From positions 1 to 35,130 of the forward strand of contig JAUCBJ010005759.1 in NCBI GenBank assembly GCA_032718475.1: a stretch of 35,130 nucleotides of DNA. The letters run 5' to 3'. This stretch comes from Nemertoderma westbladi (taxonomy: Eukaryota > Animalia > Xenacoelomorpha). This document shows, piece by piece, positions 10-24,337 of the stretch; the stretch's first letter is position 1, and every line of letters begins with the position of its first letter. Both the position numbers and the translations under genes were made by a program. The notes under the pieces are model-generated. The model saw only the letters and a program-made list of their open reading frames with translations. It had not been told where the DNA came from and searched no databases.

Positions 10-684
10 TTGGAAGCGAGTTCAACTGATTTCACTAGTACAAATGAAGTTCCAGATGAACTACCTGTGAATTTAAATGATTTGTCTGTGGCTGAAAAAG
101 ACGAAATTTTAGAAGTTGCATTTGCTACATGGAATAAGAATAAGAGAGAAACGAATTATTCCAATTTTTCCAAAATTCACAGAGGTAATTATACTGGATG
201 GAGGAGAAATTCAAATACCTTTTCACCTCATTTCACTCATAATACAGGTTCACCCAGGTTTAATCCAAAAGATATTCAGTCAGGCGAGGTGCTCAAGTGT
301 CATCGTTGTCAGAGTCGATTCCATTTAGTTCGTGACAGCCCTTCACAAGGACAGTCAAAGACTTACCAAGGTACTAATTATACATCACATGACGAACAGA
401 CGGTGGGTCAAATTTTCTCTAGTGAAGCTGAAGATATTTTTGAGATAGGTGTGGATGTTGCTGATTCGTACTCAGAATATGGAATTTTGGATTCCGCTGC
501 TACAAAAACGGTCTGTGGTGAACAGTGGTTCAATCAATTTAGAAATATTTTATACGAAAAGGCTGGTTTAAAACCTCAAATAAATGTGGCAAGTACATTT
601 TATAATTTCGGTAATGTTGGAAAACGTAAAGCAATGTTTAATGCAATCGTTTCTGTTTTCATAAATGGATTGGCATTACCATAA
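10..684 (+). pseudogene. copia gag C-terminus (degenerate zinc knuckle) and aspartic protease fragment
   Basis: C-x2-C-x4-H-x4-S (last Cys replaced by Ser). LDSAATKTVCGEQW protease motif. Frame stops at 684 before the protease C-terminal half. Confidence 0.8.
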
Positions 685-707
685 ACTTCAAGTCAAACTC
701 TGCAACT

Positions 708-1840
708 ATGGAGGGTAAGTCGCTGAAGCTTAAAAGCTGCCCGCGTGGTCATCTTTTGGTACACCTCATGGATGTGAAAGCGAGAGATATGGGTGATCAG
801 AATAATAATAATATAGTCGACATTGAAACTGTATTTCTGACTTTAACTGATTTCAGAAGTAATCCCTCTAAGGTCGCAGATAAACTTCATCGTGCTTATG
901 GGCATCCATCTTCCAACAAACTGATACAAACTATAAAACCAGTGATGCAGAAGGAATCAATGTCAATTGATGAGCAAGAACTATTAAAAGCTGCAATTGA
1001 GAAACTATCTAAATCATGTGACGTGTGTGATAAAAATTCTAAACCTGTTTCTGCTCCACGTGTCGCCATGACACCGTCAACACGATTTAATGAAAGAGTG
1101 GCACTCGATTTGACAGAGTGGAAGCGAAATAGCAAGACTTATATTATAATGCATATGATTGATCAGGCCACACGATATTCTGGTGCTTTATTTGTTACCT
1201 CTAAAGATGATGATGTCATAATTTCAGCTATTTCACATTGTTGGATTAAAATATTTGGACCACCAAAAAATATTTATTCAGATAATGGTGGTGAGTTTAC
1301 CAGCAAGCGACTTTATGCATTCTATGAACAGTTTGGAATTAATGTGAGTGGGACTGCGGCATATTCTCCTTTCAGTAATGGTCGCTGTGAAAGGCATAAT
1401 GCATTATTAAAGGTTACCATGTCCAAGATTGCTGACGATGAACGCAATATTTCACTATCATCATCAGTCATTTTAGATTTTGCGTTATTTGCAAAGAACT
1501 CACTTATGGATTCAGGAGGTTTCTCTCCTTCACAGCGAGTATTTGGCCGCAATCCACAAATACCAAATATCATAGATGCTGAATTACCAGCGCTAACTGA
1601 GTCGAATGATAAGCAAATACGTGATTTACTGAACTGTTTACATGAAACCAGACAGTCGTATATTGCTGGAGATTCTTCAGAAAGAATTAAAACAGCACTT
1701 CGTCGAAGAGTTCCATCACCTCCTCCTGTTGTCAAGAATGGTGATAGTGTGTATTATTGGCGTGTATGTTGCTGGTATTGAGACTGGATGGAAAGGACCA
1801 GGAAATGTTTTGGGTAGAGAGAAGGATCAGTCGTTCTTGT
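708..1840 (+). pseudogene. copia integrase, with frameshifts at its C-terminal end
   Basis: HHCC-type region, ALDL, IDQATRYS, SDNGGEF, ERHN. After VYYWR the expected WKGPG motif is in another frame (ORF 1642-1902) and QHGSRVIRVHP in a third. Confidence 0.88.
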
Positions 1841-3821
1841 GCAACATGGTTCCCGTGTTATTCGTGTTCATCCAATTCACATTGCACAAACAAGACGATT
1901 AAACAAGACGAAACAGCAGAATAATGCTAAAGAATACGAATCAGATGATGAGGATGATTTGGAATTTCTTAAAGATGTAATCAGTGTACCAAGTGGACAA
2001 GTTTCCAATGAAATTAAAATCCCTATATCCTCCAATATTGGTTTATTGCCATTAACAGATGATGTTGATTCGAATAATACAACCATAAATGGCAATGGAA
2101 ACTTGGAGTTAATGTATAAAAATACAGACAAATCATCTTCAATGGTTTCTGAACCAGATGTAGTTGCTGATGAGCCTTTGTACAATAGAGCTACAATTCG
2201 CGCACTGAAACAACTTGATCAACCTTTAGAACAAACTACATTACCACCAAGGACTAAAAGGCCCCCTGAACGCTATCAGTGCAACAATATTGAAGAAATG
2301 ATAGTTGCTGAAAATGCTAACGGAGTTGTTGGTACTCCAAATGTTAAATGTCAAAATGAGGAAGAGTTTTATCACTCTAAACAAAAGGAGCTGCTCTCAT
2401 GGAAAGAATATGATGTTGTTGAAATTGTTTCAATGGAAGAAGTTATAAATAAACCAATTCAAACTAGATGGGTTAATTCTTGGAAATCATTACCAAATGG
2501 CCAAGTTGTGGCAAAATCTCGGCTAGTTGCTAAGGGGTTTCAAGATGGTGAGAAAGAAAATATCATATCTGAATCGCCCACTATTGACAGAGAAATTCTA
2601 CAGTTGGTTCTGAGTTTACTTCCAACTATGGGTTATAAACCAACAACAATGGATGTAAAAACAGCCTTCCTTCAAGGTGAACAAATAAAACGAGATGTAT
2701 TTCTACACCCACCCCCAGAAGTCAGTTTACCAGCTAACACCTGTTGGAAGCTAAAGAAGACAGTATATGGATTAGTCGATGCATCTCGTAATTGGTATAA
2801 TCATGTCGACCATGTAGTAAGAGAGGCAGGTATGTTTCGTAGCAAGGCGGATCCAGCATTGTATTTTATGCACAGAGGTGAAAAACTCGAGGGTCTATTG
2901 CTTGTTCACGTTGATGATTTCTTGTATGCTGGATCAGATTGGTTCAAGATAAATATTATGTCAAAGATTCAAAGCAAATTTACAATTGGAAAAATTACTG
3001 AGAATTGTTTTTCGTTTCTGGGTCTATGTATACAAACTGTTATAGATCAAGGTGATCGTTTTCTAATTGCTATTTCCCAACAGGACAAATTTACAAAGTT
3101 GTGTGATATTCAATGTTCGGCTAACAGGAATAAATCTGAGTTGCTAACAATAGAAGAAATATCATTGGTAAGATCTCTTCTAGGTAGTCTACAATGGGCT
3201 GCGGCATTAACTCGCCCAGATCTTTCATTCAGTGTTTCAGCTCTACAATCAGAATTGAAGGATCCTACGGTGGAGATAATTACCAAAGTCAATAAATTGT
3301 TGCGAAAAGCCAAGGCTTTTTCACCAAATTTTATTTACCACCGTCCAATGGATACAATTAAGCCAATTGTCTACACTGATAGCAGCCATGGTAATCTGCA
3401 AGATGGAGGTTCTCAAAGTGGCGCTGTCATAGTATTAGAAGATGAAAAAGGAAAAGTAATCAATGTTGTGAACTGGCGATCTCATCGAATACGTCGTATT
3501 GCTAGATCAACATTTGCCGCCGAAACATTGGCATCAGCAGCTGCTATGGATCTTGCACTGTATATGGATTACATTCTCAATGAATTTATGATAAAACGAA
3601 ATAACTGGTCAATACGGTCTGACTGCAAGAGTCTCGTTGATGCTGTGCATAGTTTAACGAATGCTCCATTGGAAAAACGACTCAAAATCGATCTCGCTTC
3701 ACTTCGGGAGGCTATGAAATTATATCGCATGGTTTTCGAGTATGTGCCGACAAAGATGCAATTGGCTGATGTACTAACCAAGGAGACATCTGGTTATCAA
3801 CTATTGAAACTCTTAGAATGA
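1839..3821 (+). CDS. copia reverse transcriptase and RNase H (open portion of disrupted pol)
   Basis: 660-aa open frame with TRWV, KSRLVAKGFQD, MDVKTAFLQG, LLVHVDDFLYAG, TRPDLSF, YTDSSHGN, STFAAET, SDCKSL, QLADVLTK. Confidence 0.88.
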   Translation: MQHGSRVIRVHPIHIAQTRRLNKTKQQNNAKEYESDDEDDLEFLKDVISVPSGQVSNEIKIPISSNIGLLPLTDDVDSNNTTINGNGNLELMYKNTDKSSSMVSEPDVVADEPLYNRATIRALKQLDQPLEQTTLPPRTKRPPERYQCNNIEEMIVAENANGVVGTPNVKCQNEEEFYHSKQKELLSWKEYDVVEIVSMEEVINKPIQTRWVNSWKSLPNGQVVAKSRLVAKGFQDGEKENIISESPTIDREILQLVLSLLPTMGYKPTTMDVKTAFLQGEQIKRDVFLHPPPEVSLPANTCWKLKKTVYGLVDASRNWYNHVDHVVREAGMFRSKADPALYFMHRGEKLEGLLLVHVDDFLYAGSDWFKINIMSKIQSKFTIGKITENCFSFLGLCIQTVIDQGDRFLIAISQQDKFTKLCDIQCSANRNKSELLTIEEISLVRSLLGSLQWAAALTRPDLSFSVSALQSELKDPTVEIITKVNKLLRKAKAFSPNFIYHRPMDTIKPIVYTDSSHGNLQDGGSQSGAVIVLEDEKGKVINVVNWRSHRIRRIARSTFAAETLASAAAMDLALYMDYILNEFMIKRNNWSIRSDCKSLVDAVHSLTNAPLEKRLKIDLASLREAMKLYRMVFEYVPTKMQLADVLTKETSGYQLLKLLE

Positions 3822-4057
3822 ATTATTGTGTTTATTCTTATTAATATTTAAAAACTTTAATACACTTGTCTAGTTAAAAATAAAAATCATATGAATGTCA
3901 TAACTCTATGAAAACTCTATTAGCTAGTTATGTCTACCAGCTGATAACCTTAACAGCTGTTATAGTAAGCACTATTTATGTATGTACTTTCTATGTTATC
4001 TTGTCTTTAGTTGATTGTGTAAAAGGTTAATTGATTGTAGTTTATACCGATATTACA

Positions 4058-4157
4058 GGGGGTCTGTGTTTTGTACCTGGGGGGGTCTGTGTTTTGTACC
4101 TGGGGGGGTCTGTGTTTTGTACCTGGGGGTCTGGGGTCTTGGGTCTGTGTTTTGTAC
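4058..4157. repeat. short minisatellite, ~22-24 bp unit GGGGTCTGTGTTTTGTACCTGG, ~4 copies
   Basis: Direct inspection; the G-run length varies between copies. Confidence 0.85.
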
Positions 4158-4340
4158 ACAACCCAATATTACGGGTCATGGTGTATATATATTTATTAAA
4201 TTATTACGTGTTAGCAGCAGTGGCGTTTTAGGTCTGTGCAGCTAATATTAGTGATCGCCGAATTTGCTTTCCGATGTGATGTTAAATTATTTCATTAAAA
4301 AACATTGTCTGCTCTTCAACGATGACATTTAAACATTAAA

Positions 4341-4354
4341 GCGGGAAATTTGAA
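4341..4354 (+). promoter_or_regulatory. E2F site (GCGGGAAA) abutting a CHR-like element (TTTGAA) upstream of GINS3
   Basis: GCGGGAAATTTGAA about 170 bp upstream of the ATG. E2F and CHR motifs are typical of cell-cycle-regulated genes. Short motif, not functionally shown. Confidence 0.5.
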
Positions 4355-4518
4355 AATACCGGATAGCCAACCTGTTTTTAATGTCTGCTCAATTTGTGGT
4401 TAGATGCGTGTGACTGGTGCTGGCAGTGACAGAGCATGGAGTAGTGTAGGCCTAGCACATAATTAATTGGTCTTATTTTTATTTATTATATTAATCTGAC
4501 AAATAGAGCAATACCGGT

Positions 4519-5151
4519 ATGTCTATAGCAACGGCACCGTCTATGGGCAAGGACTTACAGCAACAGGCTACTGATTATCTGGACATAGATGACCTATTGT
4601 GCAGCCAGCAAACTACAATGTGCCGGGTAACCATGCCAGTACCGGGACTAACAATCGGACCGTCCACGGACCCCAGACCACTGGTACCGGGCAATAAAAC
4701 CGAACTCCCTCTGTGGTTGGCGCGGAGTCTGTGCAGCGCGCGTCGACAGATCGTCTCCATCGAGCAACCCGCGCAGTTTCGGGAGGCATTCCGCGAAATG
4801 CTGAAGGCCGACGCCTCGGTGCTGGACCTGTATCGCCACGGACCGCGGTACTACGGCCACGGAGCCGCGCTCCTCCGGTTCAACTTCCCGGACCGCGCCG
4901 AGATGGCGGACTCCGTTCTGCGAGCCTTCACCTCGCGGTTCCGTAGGATTATGGACGCCGGATGCAACTCCCTGGACGGAGACGCGAGTCTGTCGACGCA
5001 ACGACTCGACCGGGTGGAACGGGCTCTGTACGCAGCGGGGCAGCGGTCGTTAAGGGAGACGGTACGATGGCAGGCCGGGGATACCCGTATCATCGGGTTG
5101 GGAGCGCCGGAAACGGCAAACCGGAAGCGCAAGCGAACGGAAGTGGAATAA
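4519..5151 (+). CDS. GINS3: DNA replication complex GINS subunit Psf3, intronless CDS
   Basis: 210 aa with YLDIDDLL, ELPLWLA, ADASVLDLYRHGPRYY, FTSRFRRIMD, RLDRVERALY..GQ and a C-terminal RKRK, colinear with recalled human PSF3 (FLSLDDIL, ELPLWLA, ADPNVVDLHKMGPHFY, FIGRFRRIMD, KKRK). Confidence 0.95.
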   Translation: MSIATAPSMGKDLQQQATDYLDIDDLLCSQQTTMCRVTMPVPGLTIGPSTDPRPLVPGNKTELPLWLARSLCSARRQIVSIEQPAQFREAFREMLKADASVLDLYRHGPRYYGHGAALLRFNFPDRAEMADSVLRAFTSRFRRIMDAGCNSLDGDASLSTQRLDRVERALYAAGQRSLRETVRWQAGDTRIIGLGAPETANRKRKRTEVE

Positions 5152-5611
5152 CGTCACAATACAATACACGTACCACACGCGTTCAGTGATTGAGTGATAG
5201 TAGTGTGCAATAATATACTAGCCATTATATTATTTCTAGCACTTAGCAAGTTCTACATCAAGTCCCTTAAACCAACTTCTCGACTCGTAATTTTATTCAT
5301 ATTGCTTCGCGACTGATACCTGTACGTACATTTCTGTTTATTTAATTTATTTTAATTTAAATTACATTTACCGGTAATATATAAATATTTACGGACATAA
5401 AGCCGATATGATATATGTTAATTACCGTATTTCATTCATTTTTTAGAAATTATTAAGATCACTTAAAAAATATAAAATATTAATGTTAAATTTAGAATTA
5501 CGTGGTCTCACCCGTGTTCATACAGTCCCACGTCACAAAGCCATCTCACCCATCACATAAAGTCACCCATCATCCCATATAATATGTAATAAAGTTTAGA
5601 ATTTGAAATTT

Positions 5612-5838
5612 CGAATTCTACTTGTGTCGGCTTATTTAAGTACCGAATTCTACTTGTGTCGGCTTATTTAAGTACCGAATTCTACTTGTGTCGGCTTATT
5701 TAAGTACCGAATTCTACTTGTGTCGGCTTATTTAAGTACCGAATTCTACTTGTGTCGGCTTATTTAAGTACCGAATTCTACTTGTGTCGGCTTATTTAAG
5801 TACCGAATTCTACTTGTGTCGGCTTATTTAAGTACCGA
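5612..5838. repeat. 32-bp tandem repeat, 7 identical copies (CGAATTCTACTTGTGTCGGCTTATTTAAGTAC)
   Basis: Direct inspection; no spacers between units. Confidence 0.95.
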
Positions 5839-6189
5839 TATAGTAACAGTAAGTTAGCCGTTGGACGTGATTAATTTATTAATATTAACTAACATGTTCT
5901 TCAACGTGGTATTGTATCGTTTTAAATTATTGTAAATTACTAAACTGTGTTTTATAATAAAATAACATTATTTTGTATAATATTTACTTCACTTATTTAT
6001 TCTACCTCTACCTACTTCTATGTGACTGACTTAGCAGACCGTGAGGACACGTTAAATATGTCGAATTATCCTGAAATTTACATAAATTATGATATATTTA
6101 GTTAATTGTGTTCGTCATATACCTTATATCGCCTTCCATTCTCGTTGTATGTTTGGGGAAACCTTATCCTGGTTCAAAATAACCCAAAA

Positions 6190-6880
6190 TATTGTGGGAC
6201 GAGCCTCGAAGTTAGCGGACCCTTATCGAAATGATACTGTTAGGAGGATGGTGAGTTAATCTTTGCATTATAGTTGGTCGTTAAGATTTTGACATGCTAT
6301 TAACGTTGTCAAATTGAAAATTTATAGGCTTCAATATTGCAATAAGACTATTCGTTTTTTTAACAACGTTTATATACCATCAGTTCAACAGTCTCCCGCT
6401 AGGCTACATGTCTAAACAATAATTAGCTAAAACTATGCTTTTAATCCGTTTGTACTAGGACATTAACTGTGTCACTCAAAGGGGCTAATCCGTCGGCAGT
6501 TCTCTAGTCTGCCGCTAGAAGTCGAAATATCTGAAAGTGAAATCCTTGACCCATTCGGTTATTTGTGATCAGTCCAAACTGAAATTTGTCGGATATGTGC
6601 TGGAACACATCCTGTGTCTTTGTGAGGTCGGTAATCGGTCTGCGGTTCTCCAGTCTGTCGATAGAGGGCGAAATGTCTGAATTATTCCAAAAATTGATTA
6701 TTTCAGGCAGTTTTTTGACACATGGTAGTGAGACAAAACAACAAACTATTCATTGACGCCGTAATTTACTGTCCAGTACCAATACAGTGCAATGATATAT
6801 CTACTGGTCCTATCAGCCTTATGGTATGAGTTGAGTATCCTTCTGGTCCCATTATTCGCATCTCCCAGGCTGCCCCAATA
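6190..6880 (-). mobile_element. diverged copy of the DINE/HINE-like element at 21835-23572
   Basis: Reverse complement shares AGCATGTCAAAATC.TAACGAC, CCTAACAGT.TCA.TTCG.TAAGG.TCCGC.AACTTCG.GGCTCG.CCCACAAT and GATTTCACTTTCAGA...CTAGCGGCAGACT.GAGAACTGC with that element. The 6880 boundary is approximate. Confidence 0.7.
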
Positions 6881-6957
6881 ACCCCCCCCCCCCCCCCCCC
6901 CCACCCATCACCCCACCCACACGTATATACAGTTTCGGTATACCCCGTAGAACTAAC

Positions 6958-7071
6958 CTTTGTTTCCTTGTCACACAGACTATAATGCTTCGGTCTAGCG
7001 TTCCCAGTTTCAAATGAAACGTTAACGGCATTGAAGGCGAGTACTGTAGATCGTAGATGCTGCCGCTCCAA
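6958..7071 (-). CDS. TMEM214: TMEM214 homologue, exon G (LERQHLRSTVLAFNAVN...SLCDKETK)
   Basis: ttttag acceptor, GTTAGT donor, 114 nt, phase 0-0. Aligns with recalled human VQKSLQETIQSLKLTN...VTCDMACK. Confidence 0.8.
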
Positions 7072-7095
7072 CTAAAACAGTAAGAAAACGGATCA

Positions 7096-9093
7096 AGAGA
7101 TATCCCAACCAATGGTAAGCCGCTAAAACGTAAAACTGCAGGGATAACCCAACCAATGGTAATCCGTTAAAACCTAAAGAGATATCCCAACCAATGGTAA
7201 TCCGTTAAAACCTAAAGAGATATCCCAACCAATGGTAAGTCGCTAAAACGTAAAACTTCAGGGATAACCCAAGCAATGGTAATCTGCTAAAACCTAAAGA
7301 GATATCCCAACCAATGGTAATCCGCTAAAACCTAAAGAGATATCCCAACCAATGGTAAGTCGCTAAAACGTAAAACTTCAGGGATAACCCAAGCAATGGT
7401 AATCCGCTAAAACCTAAAGAGATATCCCAACCAATGGTAATCCGCTAAAACCTAAAGAGATATCCCAACCAATGGTAAGTCGCTAAAACGTAAAACTTCA
7501 GGGATAACCCAAGCAATGGTAATCCGCTAAAACCTAAAGAGATATCCCAACCAATGGTAATCCGCTAAAACCTAAAGAGATATCTCAACCAATGGTAAGT
7601 CGCTAAAACGTAAAACTTCAGGGATAACCCAAGCAATGGTAAGCCGCTAAAACGTAAAACTGCAGGGATAACCCAACCAATGGTAATCCGCTAAAACCTA
7701 AAGAGATATCCCAACCAATGGTAATCCGTTAAAACCTAAAGAGATATCCCAACCAATGGTAAGTCGCTAAAACGTAAAACTTCAGGGATAACCCAAGCAA
7801 TGGTAATCCGCTAAAACCTAAAGAGATATCCCAACCAATGGTAATCCGCTAAAACCTAAAGAGATATCCCAACCAATGGTAAGTCGCTAAAACGTAAAAC
7901 TGCAGGGATAACCCAACCAATGGTAATCCGCTAAAACCTAAAGAGATAACCCAACCAATGGTAATCCGTTTAAACCTAAAGAGATATCCCAACCAATGGT
8001 AAGCCGTTTAAACCTAAAGAGATATCCCAACCAATGGTAAGCCGCTAAAACGTAAAGAGATATCCCAACCAATGGTAATCCGCTAAAACCTAAAGAGATA
8101 TCCCAACCAATGGTAATCCGCTAAAACCTAAAGAGATATCCCAACCAATGGTAATCCGCTAATACGTAAAACTAATGGGATATCCCAACCAATGGTAATC
8201 CGCTAAAACGTAAAGAGATATCCCAACCAATGGTAATCCGCTAAAACCTAAAGAGATATCCCAACCAATGGTAATCCGCTAAAACCTAAAGAGATATCCC
8301 AACCAATGGTAATCCGCTAAAACCTAAAGAGATATCCCAACCAATGGTAAGTCGCTAAAACGTAAAACTTCAGGGATAACCCAACCAATGGTAATCCGTT
8401 AAAACCTAAAGAGATATCCCAACCAATGGTTTTCCGCTAAAACGTAAAACTACAGGGATATCCCAACCAATGGTAATCCGTTAAAACCTAAAGAGATATC
8501 CCAACCAATGGTTTTCCGCTAAAACGTAAAACTACAGGGATATCCCAACCAATGGTAATCCGTTAAAACCTAAAGAGATATCCCAACCAATGGTTTTCCG
8601 CTAAAACGTAAAACTACAGGGATATCCCAACCAATGGTAATCCGCTAAAACCTAAAGAGATATCCCAACCAATGGTAATCCGTTAAAACCTAAAGAGATA
8701 TCCCAACCAATGGTAAGCCGCTAAAACGTAAAACTGTAGGGATAACCCAACCAATGGTAATCCGCTAAAACCTAAAGAGATATCCCAACCAATGGTAATC
8801 CGCTAAAACCTAAAGAGATAACCCAACCAATGGTAAGTCGCTAAAACGTAAAACTTCAGGGATAACCCAAGCAATGGTAATCCGCTAAAACCTAAAGAGA
8901 TATCCCAACCAATGGTAATCCGCTAAAACCTAAAGAGATATCCCAACCAATGGTAAGTCGCTAAAACGTAAAACTTCAGGGATAACCCAAGCAATGGTAA
9001 TCCGCTAAAACCTAAAGAGATATCCCAACCAATGGTAATCCGCTAAAACCTAAAGAGATAACCCAACCAATGGTAATCCGCTAAAACGTAAAA
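7096..9093. repeat. tandem array of 38- and 44-bp related units with a 120-bp higher-order period
   Basis: Core GAGATATCCCAACCAATGGTAATCCGCTAAAACCTAAA. The 38+38+44 trimer recurs at 7261, 7381, 7501 and 7621. Confidence 0.95.
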
Positions 9094-9659
9094 CCGCAAG
9101 TCCGCAACTTTACAAACATTTAGCGGTTTATTTTCCGCGATTTCCGATTTCCGAATTCGTATTTTTGTTATTATTATTCGTATTTCGAATGTGTATTACA
9201 CGCGTAAATCCAATGCTGATACTTTCGAAACAGGACGAAATAATTAAGGGTCGACATGGAATGTAGCATTATTATATCATTCCGTGAGGTCTATTATAAG
9301 TTCTCGAATATAACCCAAAATCGGATGAAAAAGGATAACTTATTTCCCACGGGAAAAGTACCCCGTCATATGATTGCATTGATTTACCTTTTTCTCGGCG
9401 AAAAAAGTAAAATAAAATATTTTTGGTGGAATTTCTTAACTATAAATACATGTGATGTGAAAGAGCAGTATGAAAGGTTTGCAAGTAATTTGAGCAAAAT
9501 CCATTCACAGACTCAAAACCAAAAGTTATTGCAACATTTGTGTCTGCAAGGCGTGATTTAACATTGAGTAAGGCAGCATCAGGAGTTTAAGAGTACAATA
9601 ATTTGAATCGCAGTAACTATGGAATGGAAGCAATATAGTAAAATACTACAGTTCAATAT

Positions 9660-10340
9660 ATTTTGTTTCATTATGTCAACTTATCAGCGTTCTGGTGAAT
9701 TACTCGTAACGCTGCAAAGTAATCAATGACATGGAAACAACTTCAATTACCGTATTCTAGAATGTATTATTTCCATTTATGTTACTGAGTGCTGATTTAT
9801 TGCTCCAGTTTGTAGTGACGGGACTAGCTACTGTATGTAAATAATTGTTTAACATGTACTGTAATCCATTATGTCGAAACGTCCAATAGAAGACACTAAA
9901 ATTACAAAAGAAAATGGCGACAGTGTTCAGTAAAACTTAACGGACACAGACGGTGACTCAGTTAGATTCAGTCGACTATAATCAAGATGGATTAATGATT
10001 TATCACATCCATGCATGAGATAACTTCCAATAAACTTTAATTATATTTAAATGTATAATTATTACTGTGTACCTGTTAATAAATTTCACTTATATTAGAT
10101 ATAGTACATGATAAAAATATATAAATGAGCATCCATAAAATCCTTTCTTCACATACCCAACGCTGATAAGTTGACATAATGTAACAAAATTACATACATC
10201 ATTGCTTGCTAAGGTCACTTTTCAGTGTTAAAGATCCTTGTTTATTTATGTAAACCTCCCACGTTGCGCTCGCTCGGTACATAAATAAACTCGGGTCGTA
10301 ACGCTGCAAAGTGCTACTTTGCACGCAATGATGTAAATAA
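9660..10340. mobile_element. MITE-like region with inverted repeats
   Basis: TTTTGTTTCATTATGTCAACTTATCAGCGTT (~9661) is inverted at ~10161-10190. TACATCATTGC (~10195) is inverted as GCAATGATGTA (~10325). CGTAACGCTGCAAAGT is repeated directly. Confidence 0.55.
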
Positions 10341-10654
10341 TTATTGTAACGCTATATCGCTCCATGTTTTATTAAAGAATTAAACAACAAAAAGTATTTA
10401 TTTAACAATGTAATACCCCATGTAATACATTTTTTAAATATTCTAGGACATTTATCAATAGAAGAATAGTGCATTAATTTTTTTATTAATTGAAAAAATT
10501 TTCTAGAACACAAAATATTTGTTCTAAACAATTTTAATTTTTTAAATTAGCTAACATGTTCTAAAGTTTTATCAGTACCTAAAGAATCAGTACTGAAAGC
10601 AAGATACACGAAAACGTTGGGTATATGATAAATGATTTAAGTAAAGAAACTTAC

Positions 10655-10801
10655 TCTATGAGATAAAGTTCCCCAGTTACTGTGGATGTGATGGAGTAAA
10701 AGTGAAGAGTGAACTGATCCACCTTCTCTAGAATACAATTGGTTCCATACTTTATAACACTTGGGTTCCAAAGAGAGACAATGTACAAGACATCGCAACA
10801 C
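10655..10801 (-). CDS. TMEM214: TMEM214 homologue, exon F (VLRCLVHCLSLEPKCYKVWNQLYSREGGSVHSSLLLHHIHSNWGTLSHR)
   Basis: ttttgactag acceptor, GTAAGT donor, 147 nt, phase 0-0. Aligns with recalled human LLSSLTECLTVDPLSASVWRQLYPKHLSQSSLLLEHLLSSW. This frame is absent from the ORF track. Confidence 0.9.
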
Positions 10802-12924
10802 CTAGTCAAAATAAACAAAGAGATACAATGTACAAGGCAGCACAACACCTAGTCAAAATAAACAAAGAGAGACAATGTACAAGGTAGCACAACACCTAGT
10901 CAAAATAAACAAAGAGATACAATGTACAAGGCATCGCAACACCTAGTCAAAATAATCAAAGAGAGACAATGTACAAGGCATCGCAACACCTATAGTCAAA
11001 ATAATCAAAGAGAGACAATGTACAAGGCATCGCAACACCTAGTCAGAATAAACAAAGAGAGACAATGTACAAGGCATCGGAACACCTAGTCAGAATAAAC
11101 AAAGAGAGACAATGTACAAGGCATCGGAACACCTAGTCAGAATAAACAAAGAGAGACAATGTACAAGGCATCGCAACACCTAGTCAAAATAATCAAAGAG
11201 AGACAATGTACAAGGCATCGCAACACCTAGTCAAAATAATCAAAGAGAGACAATGTACAAGGCATCGCAACACCTATAGTCAAAATAATCAAAGAGAGAC
11301 AATGTACAAGGCATCGCAACACCTAGTCAGAATAAACAAAGAGAGACAATGTACAAGGCATCGCAACACCTAGTCAAAATAATCAAAGAGAGACAATGTA
11401 CAAGGCATCGCAACACCTATAGTCAAAATAATCAAAGAGAGGCAATGTACAAGGCATCGCAACACCTAGTCAGAATAAACAAAGAGAGACAATGTACAAG
11501 GCATCGGAACACCTAGTCAGAATAAACAAAGAGAGACAATGTACAAGGCATCGGAACACCTAGTCAGAATAAACAAAGAGAGACAATGTACAAGGCATCG
11601 CAACACCTAGTCAAAATAATCAAAGAGAGACAATGTACAAGGCATCGCAACACCTAGTCAAAATAAACAAAGAGAGACAATGTACAAGGCATCGCAACAC
11701 CTAGTCAAAATAATCAAAGAGAGACAATGTACAAGGCATCGCAACACCTATAGTCAAAATAATCAAAGAGAGACAATGTACAAGGCATCGCAACACCTAG
11801 TCAGAATAAACAAAGAGAGACAATGTACAAGGCATCGGAACACCTAGTCAGAATAAACAAAGAGAGACAATGTACAAGGCATCGGAACACCTAGTCAGAA
11901 TAAACAAAGAGAGACAATGTACAAGGCATCGGAACACCTAGTCAGAATAAACAAAGAGAGACAATGTACAAGATATCGCAACACCTAGTCAAAATAATCA
12001 AAGAGATACAATGTACAAGACATCGGAACACCTAGGCAATATAAACAAAGAGAGACAATGTACAAGGCATCGGAACACCTAGGCAAAATAAACAAAGAGA
12101 GACAATGTACAAGGCATCGCAACACCTAGTCAAAATAATCAAAGAGATACAATGTACAAGGCAGCACAACACCTAGTCAAAATAAACAAAGAGAGACAAT
12201 GTACAAGGCAGCACAACACCTAGTCAAAATACTCAAAGAGATACAATGTACAAGGCATCGCAACACCTAGTCAAAATAATCAAAGAGAGACAATGTACAA
12301 GGCATCGCAACACCTAGTCAAAATAAACAAAGAAAGACAATGTACAAGGCATCGGAACACCTAGTCAGAATAAACAAAGAGAGACAATGTACAAGATATC
12401 GCAACACCTAGTCAAAATAATCAAAGAGATACAATGTACAAGACATCGGAACACCTAGGCAATATAAACAAAGAGAGACAATGTACAAGGCATCGGAACA
12501 CATAGTCAGAATAAACAAAGAGAGACAATGTACAAGGCATCGCAACACCTAGTCAAACTAAACAAAGAGAGACAATGTACGAGACATCGGAACACCTAGT
12601 CAGAATAAACAAAGAGATACAATGTACAAGACATCGGAACACCTAGTCAGAATAAACAAAGAGATACAATGTACAAGACATCGGAACACCTAGTCAGAAT
12701 AAACAAAGAGATACAATGTACAAGGCATCGGAACACCTAGTCAGAATAAACAAAGAGAGACAATGTACAAGGCATCGCAACACCTAGTCAGAATAAACAA
12801 AGAGAGACAATGTACAAGGCAGCACAACACCTAGTCAAAATAAACAAAGAGATACAATGTACAAGGCATCGCAACACCTAGTCAGAATAAACAAAGAGAG
12901 ACAATGTACAAGGCAGCACAACAC
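10769..12924. repeat. 47-bp (some 49-bp) tandem array, ~46 copies, made of the exon F splice acceptor plus exon start
   Basis: Minus-strand unit TTTATTTTGACTAG|GTGTTGCGATGCCTTGTACATTGTCTCTCTTTG. The last copy overlaps the exon. Confidence 0.95.
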
Positions 12925-13203
12925 AACATAAAATAGAGCCATTTTGTCCATAACGCGCACACACTCCATTCCATGATCGCGATACACTTTATTACGAATA
13001 TTGGACTACGAATATACACCATGTCCCAGAATATAGTGTCGTAATTCAGTGACACGCCCCCCCCCCCCCCCCCCCCCCTAATTTTTCTACAAATCGTAAT
13101 GAGATTGCATGAAATATGAAACAGAGATAGTTTCACCTCCCGACCACTGACTGGGTGAGCCAGAATTTTTATTTTTGCTTTCAATCTTTAGCTACAAGCG
13201 TTT

Positions 13204-13800
13204 AAAAAAAGTGTCTCCAGCGATATTACACCAGTTACACCGCAGTTATTCGAATTTCAAATATGTAACATAATTTGAATTTCGTTGAAAAATAGCTGAG
13301 TTATGGGCAATCAAATGTTGCCTGGTTATGCACCGGCGCGAGGCTATTTTATTCTATTTAATAAATGCATCATAATCTGGAATATTTTGTTTATCCAAAT
13401 ACGTAGCTGGGCAACAATGCATTACATCTTTAATCATACTATTATGTAGCTATTCATACATTTAAAAAATGTTCCAGAATATGGTTTATTTATTAAATAG
13501 AATAAAATAGCCTCGCGCAGGTGCAAAACCATGCAACATTTGAACGCCCATATCTCAGCTATTTTTCAGCGAAATTCAAATTGTGTTACATATTTGTGAT
13601 CCTTGCAGGGCCAGCTTTCCATTTGTACCAACAAACAGCAATAAGGTAGAATAATAACTGCGGGGTAACTGGTGTAATATCGCTGGAGACACTTTTTTCT
13701 CGGACGTGTTATAAGTCCTCGGCTTCGCCTCGGACGTTATAACAGTCCTTGGACGAAATAATAGTTACTCGTACAAAATATCCGTAAAAAATAACAAATA
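13204..13800. mobile_element. palindromic non-autonomous DNA element (MITE/foldback)
   Basis: AAAAAAGTGTCTCCAGCGATATTACACCAGTTAC (~13205) is inverted at ~13665-13698. The arms continue inward to ~13390/13465. CTCGGCTTCGCCTCGG hairpin-like motif at ~13718. Confidence 0.75.
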
Positions 13801-13845: not shown

Positions 13846-14985
13846 AATGAATGAATGAATAAAAGTTATATTTATAGATACGGGTAGGTTATATATTAAT
13901 ATTACTATTATTAAGACTGGGACAGAATTTGTAGTGCAGTTTGTATATGGGGCGGGATTATTGCATAACCAACAAACACAGTCCGCCGTTGCCTTCCAGA
14001 CACTACTTTTGCTACAGACCAGGTGATGACACCCATTTGAGAGCATCAGTGCAGCTGCACGGCGACGAAAACCAGATAGAGCATCCAGCTGGATGTCACA
14101 ATCAGGATTATCGATGTTATCGATTGATTTCAGAATGGCAGAAGAGGAGGAGTACTTTACTTACTTACTCCGCACCAAAGTTTAAAATAAAAGGCTCTGA
14201 CCTTCTGAACATGTTCTAGACCGGAAACAGTTTCGTTGGCTACGAAAATATCGCACCCGTTGGTAACAGCTGGATATACAATGGTATGCCAGAGACGTTT
14301 AGCGGAGGTCAGGGATAATATAGACATATTAATCTTGGACGCTAGCAGTGCGCTGCATGCTAGGCCCCTTTTATGTAGGTGAGCGTAATCACAACCACAA
14401 GGTAAACACAAGGACCATTTTTTTGTCGAGAGAACAATTCCAAGATAATTAAAAGAGGCGACGAACTCTAGCTTGGAACCATTGTAAAGCAGTCGAAATT
14501 TTACAACTTTAGTTTTAGTAAGGTTAACATTTAGGTCATTTAGCCTGCAGTACTCATACAACTTATCAAGAGAATTTCGGAACTATTCTATTGAATTACC
14601 ATAAATTACAAGGTCATCAGCGTACATGATAATGAGACATCCGATTGTCTATCTACTAAAAATCATGGTAAATCAGCCACGAAAATACTAAATAAAAGGG
14701 GGGAACGTTAACCCTTGCACGACGCCAATTGTTTGTGCAATTGGCTGTAAGATATATGAACCAACACAAATATGAACAAAATTGGTGGCTATAAGAGCCC
14801 AAAAACACGATATGAAATGTTTACGGACTCCAAGGAGGTAATTTTAAGCATAATGATTGACAGTTTATAGAGTCAAAAGCCTTGGTGAAATCCACAAAAA
14901 CACAATGATCATGACCAGACCACTAGTTGGAAGAATTGATGTGCGTATATAATTGTATAGCAATTTGACAGCCACAATATTTTTT
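13846..14985 (-). mobile_element. 5'-truncated, frameshifted non-LTR retrotransposon (LINE) RT and C-terminus
   Basis: Minus strand: CVFVDFTKAFDS (~14900), GVVQG (~14720), IMYADDL (~14620), VNLTKTKVVKF, FNYLGIVL, Cys-rich CVCWLC end, and a (CATT)n tail at ~13850. Clade not determined. Confidence 0.88.
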
Positions 14986-15047
14986 AATGGGGGTTAAATA
15001 ATAATGATACGACAATATTATAATTATATAGAGACACAATCTTTTAC

Positions 15048-15300
15048 CTCGTTTTTGGTCTCAGCTGGTTGAGATATCCGAAGTAAGAGGCATTTATTGA
15101 GGAGCTTCCCAAAGAACTCCTCTAACGGCGCATTCCGGAACACGATATCTCGGAACCAGGGGTAATGTTGTTTGAGCTTATGCTGCAGAGCCGGAACTAC
15201 GGCAACGGGGGGCCCTTGTTGGCTGGGGTACGCGTAGTCTAACATCGTAAAGAAAACTCCCGCACTGAGGTTCTGACATTCAGGCTGCTCTCCATAGCGA
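15048..15300 (-). CDS. TMEM214: TMEM214 homologue, exon E (RYGEQPEC...FFTMLDYAYP...PAETKNE)
   Basis: ttgcag acceptor, GTAAAA donor, 253 nt, phase 2-0. Matches recalled human FFPLLDFAYMP...LQEQLCQLYPRLK...PPEMKKE. Confidence 0.9.
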
Positions 15301-15632
15301 CTGCAATACAAACGGTTTTATTATTTTTATAGCATAACATTGTAAAGTTATAATATGCTCATAAATAATTAGGACAGTTATGGACTTTGCTGCATAGACA
15401 CACACACACGTAATTGTAATCTATCTATTCCTGAGATTTTGAGAAAAACTGTAACTTAAAATCGTTTCTAAAAAGGAAACTAAAAAATTAACTGTCTGAA
15501 AGAACATTATCGAATGTATCATCAACCTCAACTATATTCCGACACCACATCATACTAAATGACGCCATTAACATTTGATGCTCCTAATCACGTTGTAAAG
15601 TTATCTTAAAGAATCACAACAATTGAACTCAC

Positions 15633-15820
15633 CTCACTAACTCATCCAAATAATTGACGGTAATCGGTACCAACGACTTGATACTCAGGAAATGGGAGAA
15701 GACATGGGACCACAGGGATATACCCACGTACAAAGATGAGAAACCGAACCAGGACAGACTCCACAGAATGCACATCGCTTTGGGGGTGTAGGTTAGGTTG
15801 GCCTGGATAGCGTCTGTCAC
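15633..15820 (-). CDS. TMEM214: TMEM214 homologue, exon D (VTDAIQ...PKAMCILWSLSWFGFSSLYVGISLW...IKSLVPITVNYLDELV)
   Basis: ccag acceptor, GTGAGT donor, 188 nt, phase 0-2. Matches recalled human AKCLTIMWALGQAGFANLTEGLKVW...IKSLSPFAITYLDRL. Confidence 0.92.
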
Positions 15821-15944
15821 CTGGATTATATTTCTCGGATTTTATAATAAGAAATCGTAGAGCTAAAAGTGAAACATTTTGCGCTCTTAATAAGCAATTG
15901 TTATACAGGGCGAAATCGGGAATAGAGCGTGTTCTATTAATCTC

Positions 15945-16258
15945 ACCTAGCTTGACAATTGAACGGAACCGCCTCCGCTTTGCAGGTCATTGCATTCACC
16001 GTGAGGAACAACCAGTGCATAATCTTGTGCTTTGGCGGCCTCCATGGAGTGAATAAGCATGGTGGACAGCCCATGACTTTCTTGAGAGTCAAATTAAAGG
16101 ACACTGGCCTTGAAGATACGGATGATCTAGCAAATGTACATGGGTGATAGGGGGTTGTGGCGGCGCAATTTTGTCGACAAGCCGGCCCAGCATTCTTAAT
16201 ATATATATGTAATATAACATAATGCAGCTGCAATGCAGCATGCCGATCGTAATAGTAG
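15945..16258 (+). mobile_element. 3' fragment of an RTE-like LINE
   Basis: RLRFAGHCIHREEQPVHNLVLW, then frameshifted GGQPMTF..LKDTGL..DL and DRGLWR, typical of RTE C-termini. A second copy lies inverted at 25450-25597. Confidence 0.7.
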
Positions 16259-16464
16259 GGAATAAAGCATCAATGAAGGCTAAATGAATGGACCATGCGA
16301 AGTATACCAGACTTTCTGCCGTTATATTTCACTTTGCAGTTACACCCATGTGAAGAATACCAGAAGACTTTCTGCATCTTAAATTTGATTACTCGTCACG
16401 TCATAGTTACATAGCTAAATAATAATAGTGAAATTAATTTCATTGTTAATATCAATAAACCTAC

Positions 16465-16694
16465 CGAGTCTAGAGTGAGTCCCAGTACAGCTGTCGGGTG
16501 AATGCTGGCAACCGCCTGGAGACAGACTCGGTACCCATAGCCAGGTCTGTGTTGGCCAGTTAAATCGATAACGCAAAGCAGACAATGATTGACGAAAGCT
16601 GACAGACAGTCAGCCCCCCCTGAGGTCTCCACATCATTTAAAGTCTTCAGAATCCAATGGCGAAGTTGCTTCGGACACATAGTGAAGTAGTTGC
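16465..16694 (-). CDS. TMEM214: TMEM214 homologue, exon C (NYFTMCPKQLRHWI...FVNHCL...YGYRVCLQAV)
   Basis: tttccag acceptor, GTAGGT donor, 230 nt, phase 1-0. Matches recalled human DYPYSLVSRELRGII...FFDHCL...HGYRICIQAI. Confidence 0.92.
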
Positions 16695-16772
16695 CTGGAA
16701 ACGGGAAGAAAATATAAATTTTTGATATTCTATAAAATGAAAAAGTCCGATAGGTATACTTATACTAAGTAG

Positions 16773-19700
16773 TTAATATTAGAGCTATCGAAGGTACAAT
16801 TAATATTAGAGCTATCGAAGGTACAATTAATATTAGAGCTATCGAAGGTACAATTAATATTAGAGCTATCGATGGTACAATTAATATTAGAGCTATCGAA
16901 GGTACAATTAATATTAGAGCTATCGAAGGTACAATTAATATTAGAGCTATCGATGGTACAATTAATATTAGAGCTATCGAAGGTACAATTAATATTAGAG
17001 CTATCGAGGTACAATTAATATTAGAGCTATCGAAGGTACAATTAATATTAGAGCTATCGAAGGTACAATTAATATTAGAGCTATCGAAGGTACAATTAAT
17101 ATTAGAGCTATCGAAGGTACAATTAATATTAGAGCTATCGAAGGTACAATTAATATTAGAGCTATCGAAGGTACAATTAATATTAGAGCTATCGAAGGTA
17201 CAATTAATATTAGAGCTATCGAAGGTACAATTAATATTAGAGCTATCGAAGGTACAATTAATATTAGAGCTATCGAAGGTACAATTAATATTAGAGCTAT
17301 CGAAGGTACAATTAATATTAGAGCTATCGAAGGTACAATTAATATTAGAGCTATCGAAGGTACAATTAATATTAGAGCTATCGAGGTACAATTAATATTA
17401 GAGCTATCGAAGGTACAATTAATATTAGAGCTATCGAAGGTACAATTAATATTAGAGCTATCGAAGGTACAATTAATATTAGAGCTATCGAAGGTACAAT
17501 TAATATTAGAGCTATCGAAGGTACAATTAATATTAGAGCTATCGAAGGTACAATTAATATTAGAGCTATCGAAGGTACAATTAATATTAGAGCTATCGAA
17601 GGTACAATTAATATTAGAGCTATCGAAGGTACAATTAATATTAGAGCTATCGAAGGTACAATTAATATTAGAGCTATCGAAGGTACAATTAATATTAGAG
17701 CTATCGAAGGTACAATTAATATTAGAGCTATCGAAGGTACAATTAATATTAGAGCTATCGAAGGTACAATTAATATTAGAGCTATCGAAGGTACAATTAA
17801 TATTAGAGCTATCGAAGGTACAATTAATATTAGAGCTATCGAAGGTACAATTAATATTAGAGCTATCGAAGGTACAATTAATATTAGAGCTATCGGAGGT
17901 ACAATTAATATTAGAGCTATCGAAGGTACAATTAATATTAGAGCTATCGAAGGTACAATTAATATTAGAGCTATCGAAGGTACAATTAATATTAGAGCTA
18001 TCGAAGGTACAATTAATATTAGAGCTATCGAAGGTACAATTAATATTAGAGCTATCGAAGGTACAATTAATATTAGAGCTATCGAAGGTACAATTAATAT
18101 TAGAGCTATCGAAGGTACAATTAATATTAGAGCTATCGAAGGTACAATTAATATTAGAGCTATCGAAGGTACAATTAATATTAGAGCTATCGAAGGTACA
18201 ATTAATATTAGAGCTATCGAAGGTACAATTAATATTAGAGCTATCGAAGGTACAATTAATATTAGAGCTATCGAAGGTACAATTAATATTAGAGCTATCG
18301 AAGGTACAATTAATATTAGAGCTATCGAAGGTACAATTAATATTAGAGCTATCGAAGGTACAATTAATATTAGAGCTATCGAAGGTACAATTAATATTAG
18401 AGCTATCGAAGGTACAATTAATATTAGAGCTATCGAAGGTACAATTAATATTAGAGCTATCGAAGGTACAATTAATATTAGAGCTATCGAAGGTACAATT
18501 AATATTAGAGCTATCGAAGGTACAATTAATATTAGAGCTATCGAAGGTACAATTAATATTAGAGCTATCGAAGGTACAATTAATATTAGAGCTATCGAAG
18601 GTACAATTAATATTAGAGCTATCGAAGGTACAATTAATATTAGAGCTATCGAAGGTACAATTAATATTAGAGCTATCGAAGGTACAATTAATATTAGAGC
18701 TATCGAAGGTACAATTAATATTAGAGCTATCGAAGGTACAATTAATATTAGAGCTATCGAAGGTACAATTAATATTAGAGCTATCGAAGGTACAATTAAT
18801 ATTAGAGCTATCGAAGGTACAATTAATATTAGAGCTATCGAAGGTACAATTAATATTAGAGCTATCGAAGGTACAATTAATATTAGAGCTATCGAAGGTA
18901 CAATTAATATTAGAGCTATCGAAGGTACAATTAATATTAGAGCTATCGAAGGTACAATTAATATTAGAGCTATCGGAGGTACAATTAATATTAGAGCTAT
19001 CGATGGTACAATTAATATTAGAGCTATCGAAGGTACAATTAATATTAGAGCTATCGAAGGTACAATTAATATTAGAGCTATCGAAGGTACAATTAATATT
19101 AGAGCTATCGATGGTACAATTAATATTAGAGCTATCGAAGGTACAATTAATATTAGAGCTATCGAAGGTACAATTAATATTAGAGCTATCGAAGGTACAA
19201 TTAATATTAGAGCTATCGATGGTACAATTAATATTAGAGCTATCGAAGGTACAATTAATATTAGAGCTATCGAAGGTACAATTAATATTAGAGCTATCGA
19301 AGGTACAATTAATATTAGAGCTATCGAAGGTACAATTAATATTAGAGCTATCGAAGGTACAATTAATATTAGAGCTATCGAAGGTACAATTAATATTAGA
19401 GCTATCGATGGTACAATTAATATTAGAGCTATCGAAGGTACAATTAATATTAGAGCTATCGAAGGTACAATTAATATTAGAGCTATCGAAGGTACAATTA
19501 ATATTAGAGCTATCGATGGTACAATTAATATTAGAGCTATCGATGGTACAATTAATATTAGAGCTATCGAAGGTACAATTAATATTAGAGCTATCGAAGG
19601 TACAATTAATATTAGAGCTATCGAAGGTACAATTAATATTAGAGCTATCGAAGGTACAATTAATATTAGAGCTATCGAAGGTACAATTAATATTAGAGCT

Positions 19701-21824
19701 ATCGAAGGTACAATTAATATTAGAGCTATCGAAGGTACAATTAATATTAGAGCTATCGAAGGTACAATTAATATTAGAGCTATCGAAGGTACAATTAATA
19801 TTAGAGCTATCGAAGGTACAATTAATATTAGAGCTATCGATGGTACAATTAATATTAGAGCTATCGATGGTACAATTAATATTAGAGCTATCGAAGGTAC
19901 AATTAATATTAGAGCTATCGAAGGTACAATTAATATTAGAGCTATCGAAGGTACAATTAATATTAGAGCTATCGATGGTACAATTAATATTAGAGCTATC
20001 GATGGTACAATTAATATTAGAGCTATCGAAGGTACAATTAATATTAGAGCTATCGAAGGTACAATTAATATTAGAGCTATCGAAGGTACAATTAATATTA
20101 GAGCTATCGATGGTACAATTAATATTAGAGCTATCGATGGTACAATTAATATTAGAGCTATCGAAGGTACAATTAATATTAGAGCTATCGAAGGTACAAT
20201 TAATATTAGAGCTATCGAAGGTACAATTAATATTAGAGCTATCGAAGGTACAATTAATATTAGAGCTATCGAAGGTACAATTAATATTAGAGCTATCGAA
20301 GGTACAATTAATATTAGAGCTATCGAAGGTACAATTAATATTAGAGCTATCGAAGGTACAATTAATATTAGAGCTATCGAAGGTACAATTAATATTAGAG
20401 CTATCGAAGGTACAATTAATATTAGAGCTATCGATGGTACAATTAATATTAGAGCTATCGAAGGTACAATTAATATTAGAGCTATCGATGGTACAATTAA
20501 TATTAGAGCTATCGAAGGTACAATTAATATTAGAGCTATCGAAGGTACAATTAATATTAGAGCTATCGAAGGTACAATTAATATTAGAGCTATCGAAGGT
20601 ACAATTAATATTAGAGCTATCGAAGGTACAATTAATATTAGAGCTATCGATGGTACAATTAATATTAGAGCTATCGATGGTACAATTAATATTAGAGCTA
20701 TCGAAGGTACAATTAATATTAGAGCTATCGAAGGTACAATTAATATTAGAGCTATCGAAGGTACAATTAATATTAGAGCTATCGAAGGTACAATTAATAT
20801 TAGAGCTATCGAAGGTACAATTAATATTAGAGCTATCGAAGGTACAATTAATATTAGAGCTATCGAAGGTACAATTAATATTAGAGCTATCGAAGGTACA
20901 ATTAATATTAGAGCTATCGAAGGTACAATTAATATTAGAGCTATCGAAGGTACAATTAATATTAGAGCTATCGATGGTACAATTAATATTAGAGCTATCG
21001 AAGGTACAATTAATATTAGAGCTATCGATGGTACAATTAATATTAGAGCTATCGAAGGTACAATTAATATTAGAGCTATCGAAGGTACAATTAATATTAG
21101 AGCTATCGAAGGTACAATTAATATTAGAGCTATCGAAGGTACAATTAATATTAGAGCTATCGAAGGTACAATTAATATTAGAGCTATCGATGGTACAATT
21201 AATATTAGAGCTATCGATGGTACAATTAATATTAGAGCTATCGAAGGTACAATTAATATTAGAGCTATCGAAGGTACAATTAATATTAGAGCTATCGAAG
21301 GTACAATTAATATTAGAGCTATCGAAGGTACAATTAATATTAGAGCTATCGAAGGTACAATTAATATTAGAGCTATCGAAGGTACAATTAATATTAGAGC
21401 TATCGAAGGTACAATTAATATTAGAGCTATCGAAGGTACAATTAATATTAGAGCTATCGAAGGTACAATTAATATTAGAGCTATCGAAGGTACAATTAAT
21501 ATTAGAGCTATCGATGGTACAATTAATATTAGAGCTATCGAAGGTACAATTAATATTAGAGCTATCGATGGTACAATTAATATTAGAGCTATCGAAGGTA
21601 CAATTAATATTAGAGCTATCGAAGGTACAATTAATATTAGAGCTATCGATGGTACAATTAATATTAGAGCTATCGAAGGTACAATTAATATTAGAGCTAT
21701 CGAAGGTACAATTAATATTAGAGCTATCGAAGGTACAATTAATATTAGAGCTATCGAAGGTACAATTAATATTAGAGCTATCGGAGGTACAATTAATATT
21801 AGAGCTATCGAAGGTACAATTAAT
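16773..21824. repeat. 27-bp satellite, ~187 copies (GAAGGTACAATTAATATTAGAGCTATC)
   Basis: Nearly invariant unit with A/T and A/G variants and two 1-bp deletion variants. Confidence 0.97.
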
Positions 21825-21834
21825 AAGTGAATTG

Positions 21835-24142: not shown

Positions 24143-24337
24143 TGGTGAATTTGGAGAAAGTAAACTCCCCTTCCTGACAGTCCAACTGGTTGTTTAGATT
24201 AGCTGCCAGTTCGGTTAACCACATCCCGTAATGGTCAGTCGCCGCCGCCTTTACGTCCGATAGACAGGATGACAGCTCCGATACACTCACTTTCTTCACG
24301 GCTTCCTCGAAAGTCTTGGGTAAAACAATCTTAGTGG
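24143..24337 (-). CDS. TMEM214: TMEM214 homologue, exon B (KTFEEAVKKVSVSEL...MWLTELAANLNNQL)
   Basis: ctctag acceptor, GTAAGT donor, 195 nt, phase 1-1. Matches recalled human RSLEEALKALDVADL...IWLKDLASYLNYKL. Confidence 0.92.

What the first reader, a model, noticed from the sequence alone, without database searches (positions are those of the whole stretch)
10655..12924. A satellite made of a live splice acceptor: ~46 tandem copies of intron end plus 11 codons, only the last one productive
Seen: the 47-bp unit on the minus strand is TTTATTTTGACTAG|GTGTTGCGATGCCTTGTACATTGTCTCTCTTTG, and the final copy runs directly into exon F. Its 33 exonic nt encode VLRCLVHCLSL, which aligns with recalled TMEM214 LLSSLTECLTV, so the unit spans a genuine exon junction. 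Because 47 is not a multiple of 3, use of the penultimate AG frameshifts, and more distal AGs meet a TGA in the unit. Inference: the spliceosome must skip about 45 near-identical decoy 3' splice sites, or the array acts as a copy-number-dependent NMD rheostat on TMEM214.
Basis: partly seen in the sequence, partly recalled or inferred. Interest (0 to 1): 0.9.

Follow-up and report, generated by a model that had tools for sequence, protein, structure and literature searches.

The report
Repeated splice acceptor in TMEM214 intron
In an animal TMEM214 gene, the last 14 bases of an intron plus the first 33 bases of the next exon are repeated 46 times head to tail; only the last copy keeps the protein's reading frame, and the cell likely uses that copy and ignores the rest, as in the 'mirage' repeats already described in lancelets.

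Summary
The array is real: 47-bp period, 45.7 copies, 94% matches, 10769-12924. It spans the acceptor of a TMEM214 exon: five exons hit PF10151 in order, six splice into 368 open codons, and the 11 repeated codons add 13 bits to the match. It holds 43 junction decoy AGs, 2 incidental AGs and the real AG at 10801. 44 of the 45 other AGs stop within 47 codons; the nearest decoy frameshifts but meets no stop through exon G.

This is a known kind: amphioxus 'mirages' and human junction-spanning VNTRs (F7, CBS, 6-16), where the exon-proximal site is used, sometimes with its 1-2 neighbours. This scan noted six similar arrays in other genomes (unchecked). Best reading: a tolerated minisatellite resolved by exon definition, in a window that is 45% tandem repeat.

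The NMD rheostat is unsupported: distal copies would make exons of up to 2.2 kb, and two likely mis-splicing routes (skipping exon F, acceptor 10759) stay in frame. No RNA run was listed, so splicing is untested.

The parts
10769..12924 (-). 47-bp minisatellite: 46 exon parts (33 nt) and 45 intron parts (14 nt; four 16 nt); 22 distinct full units among 45
10848..12877 (-). 43 junction-copy decoy acceptors (first exonic bases 12877...10848), one dead copy (AT at 12501), two incidental AGs (12557, 12231)
10802..10857 (-). Working 3' splice-site region of the real acceptor. Its pyrimidine tract is the penultimate copy of exon sequence; a branch-point-like TTTTGAC (A at 10853, -52) lies in the previous unit's intron part. 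Branch use is inferred.
10655..10801 (-). TMEM214 exon F, 147 nt, phase 0-0; first 33 nt are the terminal repeat copy, 114 nt unique; donor AGA|GTAAGT
   Evidence: (PF10151 376-420, E 6.1e-10)
10760..10761 (-). In-frame alternative AG inside exon F (first exonic base 10759); would drop 14 conserved codons
15048..15300 (-). TMEM214 exon E, donor at 15047 (GAG|GTAAAA)
   Evidence: (PF10151 307-365, weak, E 0.14)
15633..15820 (-). TMEM214 exon D
   Evidence: (PF10151 245-293, E 1.5e-7)
16465..16694 (-). TMEM214 exon C
   Evidence: (PF10151 164-223, E 3.9e-4)
24143..24314 (-). TMEM214 exon B
   Evidence: (PF10151 102-157, E 4e-7)
6958..7071 (-). Probable TMEM214 exon G, 114 nt, canonical sites and in frame, but no Pfam hit on its own

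Best explanation
This is a minisatellite made of the intron E-F 3' end plus the first 11 codons of TMEM214 exon F, and the spliceosome likely uses only the last copy because it is the one paired across the exon with the strong exon F donor. Shown: the anatomy, the gene, and that only the last array AG gives the intact frame. Inferred: a 47-bp local duplication across the junction left the last copy working, so it was tolerated; slippage and unequal crossing-over then expanded and shuffled it, as with the other arrays in this gene. The intron is 4.2 kb, so exon definition (established knowledge, recalled) should apply. The last AG gives a 147-nt exon, the next three give 194, 241 and 288 nt, and the rest 335-2223 nt. 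Only the last 2-4 AGs are realistic competitors; the other ~40 are passive, so total copy number should matter little. Some leak to the nearest one or two decoys is expected by analogy. The upstream exon copies now serve as the pyrimidine tract and probably the branch site of the real acceptor, so at least one extra copy is part of the working splice site.
For: Gene and frame. Decoys are as good locally as the real site: 17-21 of 27 pyrimidines against 19, and no accessibility advantage for the last AG (rank 39 of 45; ranks 16-31 of 45), which leaves position as the discriminator. Unique exon F is purine-richer than the repeated part (0.49 against 0.33; 5 GAR triplets against 0), and its donor is a consensus GTAAGT. 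AG|GT inside the units reads GTGTT, unlike the six real donors, so re-splicing within the array is unlikely. Precedent: mirages in amphioxus Adh3, globins, TnC and PGBD5 are reported not to disturb splicing (PMC3087553 passages; PMC3902484 passage). F7, lamin B2 and PDGF use only the authentic site; 6-16 and CBS also use two pseudo-sites (PMC1557585 abstract, Discussion and passages). In CBS 844ins68 the distal copy of a duplicated intron 7/exon 8 junction is strongly favoured (PMC2630376 passage). Six large arrays make up 15,741 of 35,130 bases, and the 38-bp array puts 77 looser YAG pseudo-acceptors (7 at the stricter cut-off) before exon G.
Against: No transcript evidence here. The 3' exons (PF10151 beyond about 420-460) and 5' exons were not located: 0 TMEM214 hits among 89 ORF pieces scanned (ORFs of 30 aa or more from 27430-30960 were only partly included), so an intact expressed gene is not shown. 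43 decoys is more than in the read precedents (up to 25). Most human precedents are donor-side and may not transfer. Variants in the exon part lean synonymous (whole-unit null p 0.013), which a purely passive array does not predict, though the signal is not robust.
Confidence: 0.75

Rival explanations
1. Copy-number-dependent rheostat: longer alleles divert more transcripts to decoy AGs, NMD removes them, and TMEM214 dose falls with copy number.
For: 44 of 45 non-terminal AGs give a stop 151-2133 nt upstream of the exon F donor. Decoys are locally as strong as the real site. Human tandem repeats associated with splicing are common (9537 in PMC10078293; listing and passages). A reference title links the CBS junction VNTR to lower enzyme activity (title only).
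Against: In the read precedents only the site next to the exon, or its two neighbours, is used whatever the copy number, and mirages are reported to give normal mRNA. The nearest decoy has no stop through exon G. Nothing shows selection on copy number, and the gene holds five other large arrays with no such logic.
Confidence: 0.08
2. The in-frame AG at 10759 is the main or a co-main acceptor: the last unit's branch-like site pairs with it at the same spacing that links each unit to the next, removing all repeat sequence and 14 codons.
For: In frame, no stop; 14 of 20 pyrimidines against 15 for 10801; closer to the donor.
Against: Losing these codons drops the PF10151 score from 38.7 to 22.3 bits and leaves a gap of about 13 profile positions; the terminal copy still encodes the profile-matching residues; AAG preceded by GGAACCC is a poorer acceptor (recalled consensus).
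Confidence: 0.06
3. The array damages this allele: exon F is often skipped (in frame, minus 49 aa) or the gene copy is not expressed.
For: Exon F is symmetric (147 nt, phase 0-0). F7 minigenes skip the exon when the usable site lies further away. 3' exons not found.
Against: 368 codons over six exons stay open with canonical GT-AG sites, and exon F is the best-scoring piece of the gene.
Confidence: 0.07
4. The array, or its length, is an assembly artefact.
For: No reads could be checked; one amphioxus mirage was mis-assembled in its draft genome (supplement legend).
Against: 22 distinct units among 45, recurrent variant combinations, and a longest exact internal match of only 255 bp in 2156 fit real turnover rather than copying by an assembler.
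Confidence: 0.04

Closest known systems
Amphioxus 'mirage' minisatellites (Adh3, BflGb6, BflGb9, troponin C, PGBD5); PMC3087553 passages of abstract, section 16 and supplement legends; PMC3902484 passage. The original Adh3 paper, PMC117041, was not held.
   Same: Tandem repeat of an intron 3' end plus the exon start (BflGb6 has this polarity); unit size inside the Adh3 range of 10-72 bp; most but not all units keep the AG; block-wise homogenisation.
   Different: More copies (46 against 3-6 in BflGb6); host phylum not determined; normal splicing and length variation not tested here.
Human junction-spanning VNTRs: F7 IVS7 (37 bp, 5-9 copies), CBS IVS13 (31 bp, 15-20), 6-16 (25 pseudo-sites), lamin B2, PDGF; PMC1557585 abstract, Discussion, passages
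   Same: Reiterated authentic splice site; copies are intact; the site next to the exon wins, with leak to two neighbours in 6-16 and CBS.
   Different: Those repeat the donor; this repeats the acceptor, with 33 coding bases that double as the next copy's pyrimidine tract.
CBS 844ins68; PMC2630376 passage
   Same: Duplicated intron-end/exon-start junction in which the distal copy is used and the mRNA is normal.
   Different: Two copies of 68 bp, not an array.

Membership tests
Mirage / junction-spanning minisatellite | Head-to-tail repeat whose unit spans an exon-intron boundary | tested here: met
Mirage / junction-spanning minisatellite | Many but not all units keep the splice dinucleotide | tested here: met
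   44 of 45 junctions AG, 1 AT
Mirage / junction-spanning minisatellite | Minisatellite-size unit with high identity and internal homogenisation | tested here: met
   47 bp, 94%; repeated blocks of up to 255 bp
Mirage / junction-spanning minisatellite | Cluster edges excluded from homogenisation | tested here: inconclusive
   The TGC codon-3 variant sits in copies 1, 3, 44, 45 but also 16, 17; the terminal exon part is unique among 46
Mirage / junction-spanning minisatellite | Regular mRNA is made despite the repeats | not testable with these tools
   no RNA holder listed
Mirage / junction-spanning minisatellite | Length varies between haplotypes or cells | not testable with these tools
   no genome held; no second copy of the locus found
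TMEM214 (PF10151) | Colinear match to the family profile above the curated cut-off | tested here: met
   3 of 5 exons pass 27 bits alone, all 5 in order over positions 102-420
TMEM214 (PF10151) | Complete gene including the C-terminal membrane region | tested here: inconclusive
   no further exon found among 89 ORF pieces; may lie outside the window
Unproductive-splicing (AS-NMD) control element | Alternative site yields a premature stop well upstream of a later junction | tested here: met
   44 of 45 non-terminal AGs; not the nearest one
Unproductive-splicing (AS-NMD) control element | The unproductive isoform is made, regulated and conserved | not testable with these tools
   no transcripts or orthologous loci

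The most novel reading that the evidence does not exclude
The decoys are not passive. Unequal exchange keeps handing internal copies to the coding position, so the whole array is held under protein-level selection and acts as a reservoir of amino-acid variants (L/F, R/C, C/Y, L/I) for exon F, while allele length or the identity of the last few units tunes how much productive TMEM214 mRNA is made. All 13 exon-part types among 46 copies are stop-free, the C>T change that alone would make TGA occurs only with a second change that makes TGC (6 of 6 copies), and 6 of 9 variant sites are third positions.
Probability: 0.1. Interest if true: 0.6.

Novelty: new member of a known kind. Interest (0 to 1): 0.22.

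Why it matters
As it stands it is a large, clean example of a described class. Its value is practical: the copies carry diagnostic variants (the terminal exon part is unique among 46), so ordinary junction reads could show exactly which of 44 near-equal acceptors is used. That would be an acceptor-side counterpart of the F7 experiments. It would matter more if the decoys proved to be under coding constraint through exchange with the real exon, or if allele length changed TMEM214 output; neither is shown.

Tried and rejected
RNA evidence: no RNA holder listed for 15040-16700, so no reads were laid; this blank is not evidence either way. No whole genome held. Homologue searches with single exons found nothing: 0 of 19 and 0 of 1 candidates, 0 in the representative library, no usable Atlas hit, one chance PDB hit at E 0.92. 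Intron-position conservation and tolerated residues were therefore not tested. Metagenome scans: 0 exact matches to a 20-nt exon F pattern; 0 of 591 pattern matches confirmed. RNA structure as the selector: rejected, the last AG is not more open than the decoys, and its 94-nt fold is unremarkable (z -0.46; one of four windows reached z -2.3, an internal one). Recursive splicing or intron gain through AG|GT: unlikely, the GT context is GTGTT. Coding constraint on decoys: p 0.013 (whole unit), 0.13 (exon part only), 0.38 and 0.69 (variants in two or more copies); the other two frames show nothing; post hoc and inconclusive, 3 of 5 synonymous variants are singletons. Literature searches on acceptor-side VNTRs returned nothing directly relevant; the library lacks most subscription journals. 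No supplementary files were opened; those of PMC3087553 hold the mirage alignments.

Full report
Observation. Tandem Repeats Finder gives a 47-bp array at 10769-12924, 45.7 copies, 94% matches, no indel load, score 3582. On the minus strand it parses into 46 exon parts of 33 nt and 45 intron parts of 14 nt, four of which carry a 2-nt insertion. 44 of 45 junctions keep AG and one reads AT. With two AGs created by point variants, the array holds 46 AGs: the real acceptor (first exonic base 10801), 43 junction decoys and 2 incidental ones. The 5' edge begins with an exon part that has no AG in front, so the first intron part has been eroded or lost (the cause is inference).

The gene. Five exons translated separately all hit Pfam TMEM214 (PF10151) in order: profile 102-157, 164-223, 245-293, 307-365 (weak, E 0.14) and 376-420. 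With a sixth probable exon (7071-6958, no Pfam hit alone) they join at canonical GT-AG sites into 368 codons without a stop. Exon F scores 38.7 bits whole, 25.6 without the 11 repeated codons and 22.3 from the internal AG at 10759, so the terminal repeat copy is coding sequence. The remaining exons were not found among 89 ORF pieces scanned (this covered 3700-6960, 9090-10650 and 34 of 49 upstream pieces), so completeness and expression are not shown. The host is an animal: the neighbouring Psf3 protein has named relatives in molluscs, tunicates and a leech at 37-45% identity, which does not fix a phylum.

Outcome of each acceptor. Only 10801 gives the intact frame among array AGs. The penultimate AG (10848) shifts the frame but meets no stop in exons F or G, so it is not shown to be an NMD substrate. 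The other 44 stop within 3-47 codons (35 TGA, 9 TAG), 151-2133 nt before the exon F donor.

What selects the last copy. Local quality does not: decoys have 17-21 pyrimidines in 27 bases against 19 for the real site, and 44 sites in the array pass a 14-of-20 pyrimidine filter that exons B, D and E fail. Predicted structure does not: the terminal AG ranks 39 of 45 for accessibility in one setting and 16-31 of 45 in two others. What differs is position. The last AG gives a 147-nt exon ending in a consensus GTAAGT donor, followed by unique, purine-richer sequence; the next three give 194, 241 and 288 nt and the rest up to 2223 nt. In a 4.2-kb intron exon definition is the expected mode (recalled knowledge), which limits competition to the last few copies and makes total copy number largely irrelevant. 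This step is inferred. One anatomical consequence is shown directly: only 14 intronic bases were duplicated, so the real acceptor's pyrimidine tract is a copy of the exon's own start, and the nearest usable branch-like motif (A at -52) lies in the preceding unit.

Context. Six large arrays fill 15,741 of 35,130 bases. The 38-bp array before exon G supplies 77 loose pseudo-acceptors (7 strict), so decoy-rich introns are normal for this gene. Three of five arrays between defined exons end within 80 nt of, or overlap, an acceptor (post hoc p 0.0007; 2 of 4 without the 47-mer, p 0.011). This is one gene and was noticed after the fact.

Evolution of the units. There are 22 distinct units among 45 and 13 exon-part types among 46; blocks of three to five units recur, and the longest exact internal match is 255 bp. 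This fits real turnover by unequal exchange and argues against an assembly artefact, though no reads were checked. Exon-part variants lean synonymous and none creates a stop, but the test is significant only against the whole-unit null (p 0.013) and not for the exon part alone (0.13) or for recurrent variants (0.38, 0.69). It is kept as a lead.

Comparison with what is known. [quoted passage not shown] Human donor-side equivalents are F7, lamin B2 and PDGF (authentic site only) and 6-16 and CBS (two pseudo-sites also used) (PMC1557585 abstract, Discussion and passages). CBS 844ins68 is the two-copy case of this junction type (PMC2630376 passage). Human repeats that affect splicing are common (PMC10078293 listing and passages), so a dose effect is possible in principle. 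The name 'mirage' and the two amphioxus papers came from earlier notes of this scan, which list six similar acceptor arrays in other genomes, each reported to use the last copy where RNA existed (not checked here and not counted as evidence). The structural features of the class are met; normal splicing and length variation could not be tested.

Verdict. Observation confirmed with small corrections; interpretation partly supported. New member of a known kind, with more copies than the examples read. Interest 0.22. The rheostat has about 0.08; the bolder reading, that the array exchanges with and is constrained by the coding copy and tunes output, about 0.1.

Noticed in passing
window 7095-9094, 16773-21825, 30964-34653 (minus strand): Other arrays also end close to acceptors of this gene: 23 nt before exon G, 78 nt before exon C, about 67 nt before an unverified exon near 30896-30766. 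Post hoc p 0.011 without the 47-mer. May reflect a bias in where arrays arise or survive.
   Followed up: partly
window 4507-5151 (+): Apparently intronless GINS subunit Psf3 gene (PF22466, E 2e-9) on the opposite strand, 1.8 kb past exon G; it would be nested in a TMEM214 intron if the missing 3' exons lie beyond base 1.
   Followed up: partly
window 1-3821 (+): Copia-type LTR retrotransposon remnant with RVT_2 domain (E 1.2e-28).
   Followed up: no
window 7095-9094: 38-bp array with 82- and 120-bp higher-order periods; units contain TTTAG sites, 77 loose pseudo-acceptors before exon G.
   Followed up: partly
window 30954-34722: 27-bp array, 137 copies, open in several frames for 900-1250 codons; most likely a by-product of a stop-free unit of length divisible by three.
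   Followed up: no
window 27800-30050, 23580-24090, 13200-13700: By eye, long inverted-repeat pairs resembling MITE or foldback elements in TMEM214 introns; not measured.
   Followed up: no
window 14050-14750 (-): By eye, a decayed fragment resembling a non-LTR reverse transcriptase in the unique part of intron E-F; resemblance recalled, not tested.
   Followed up: no
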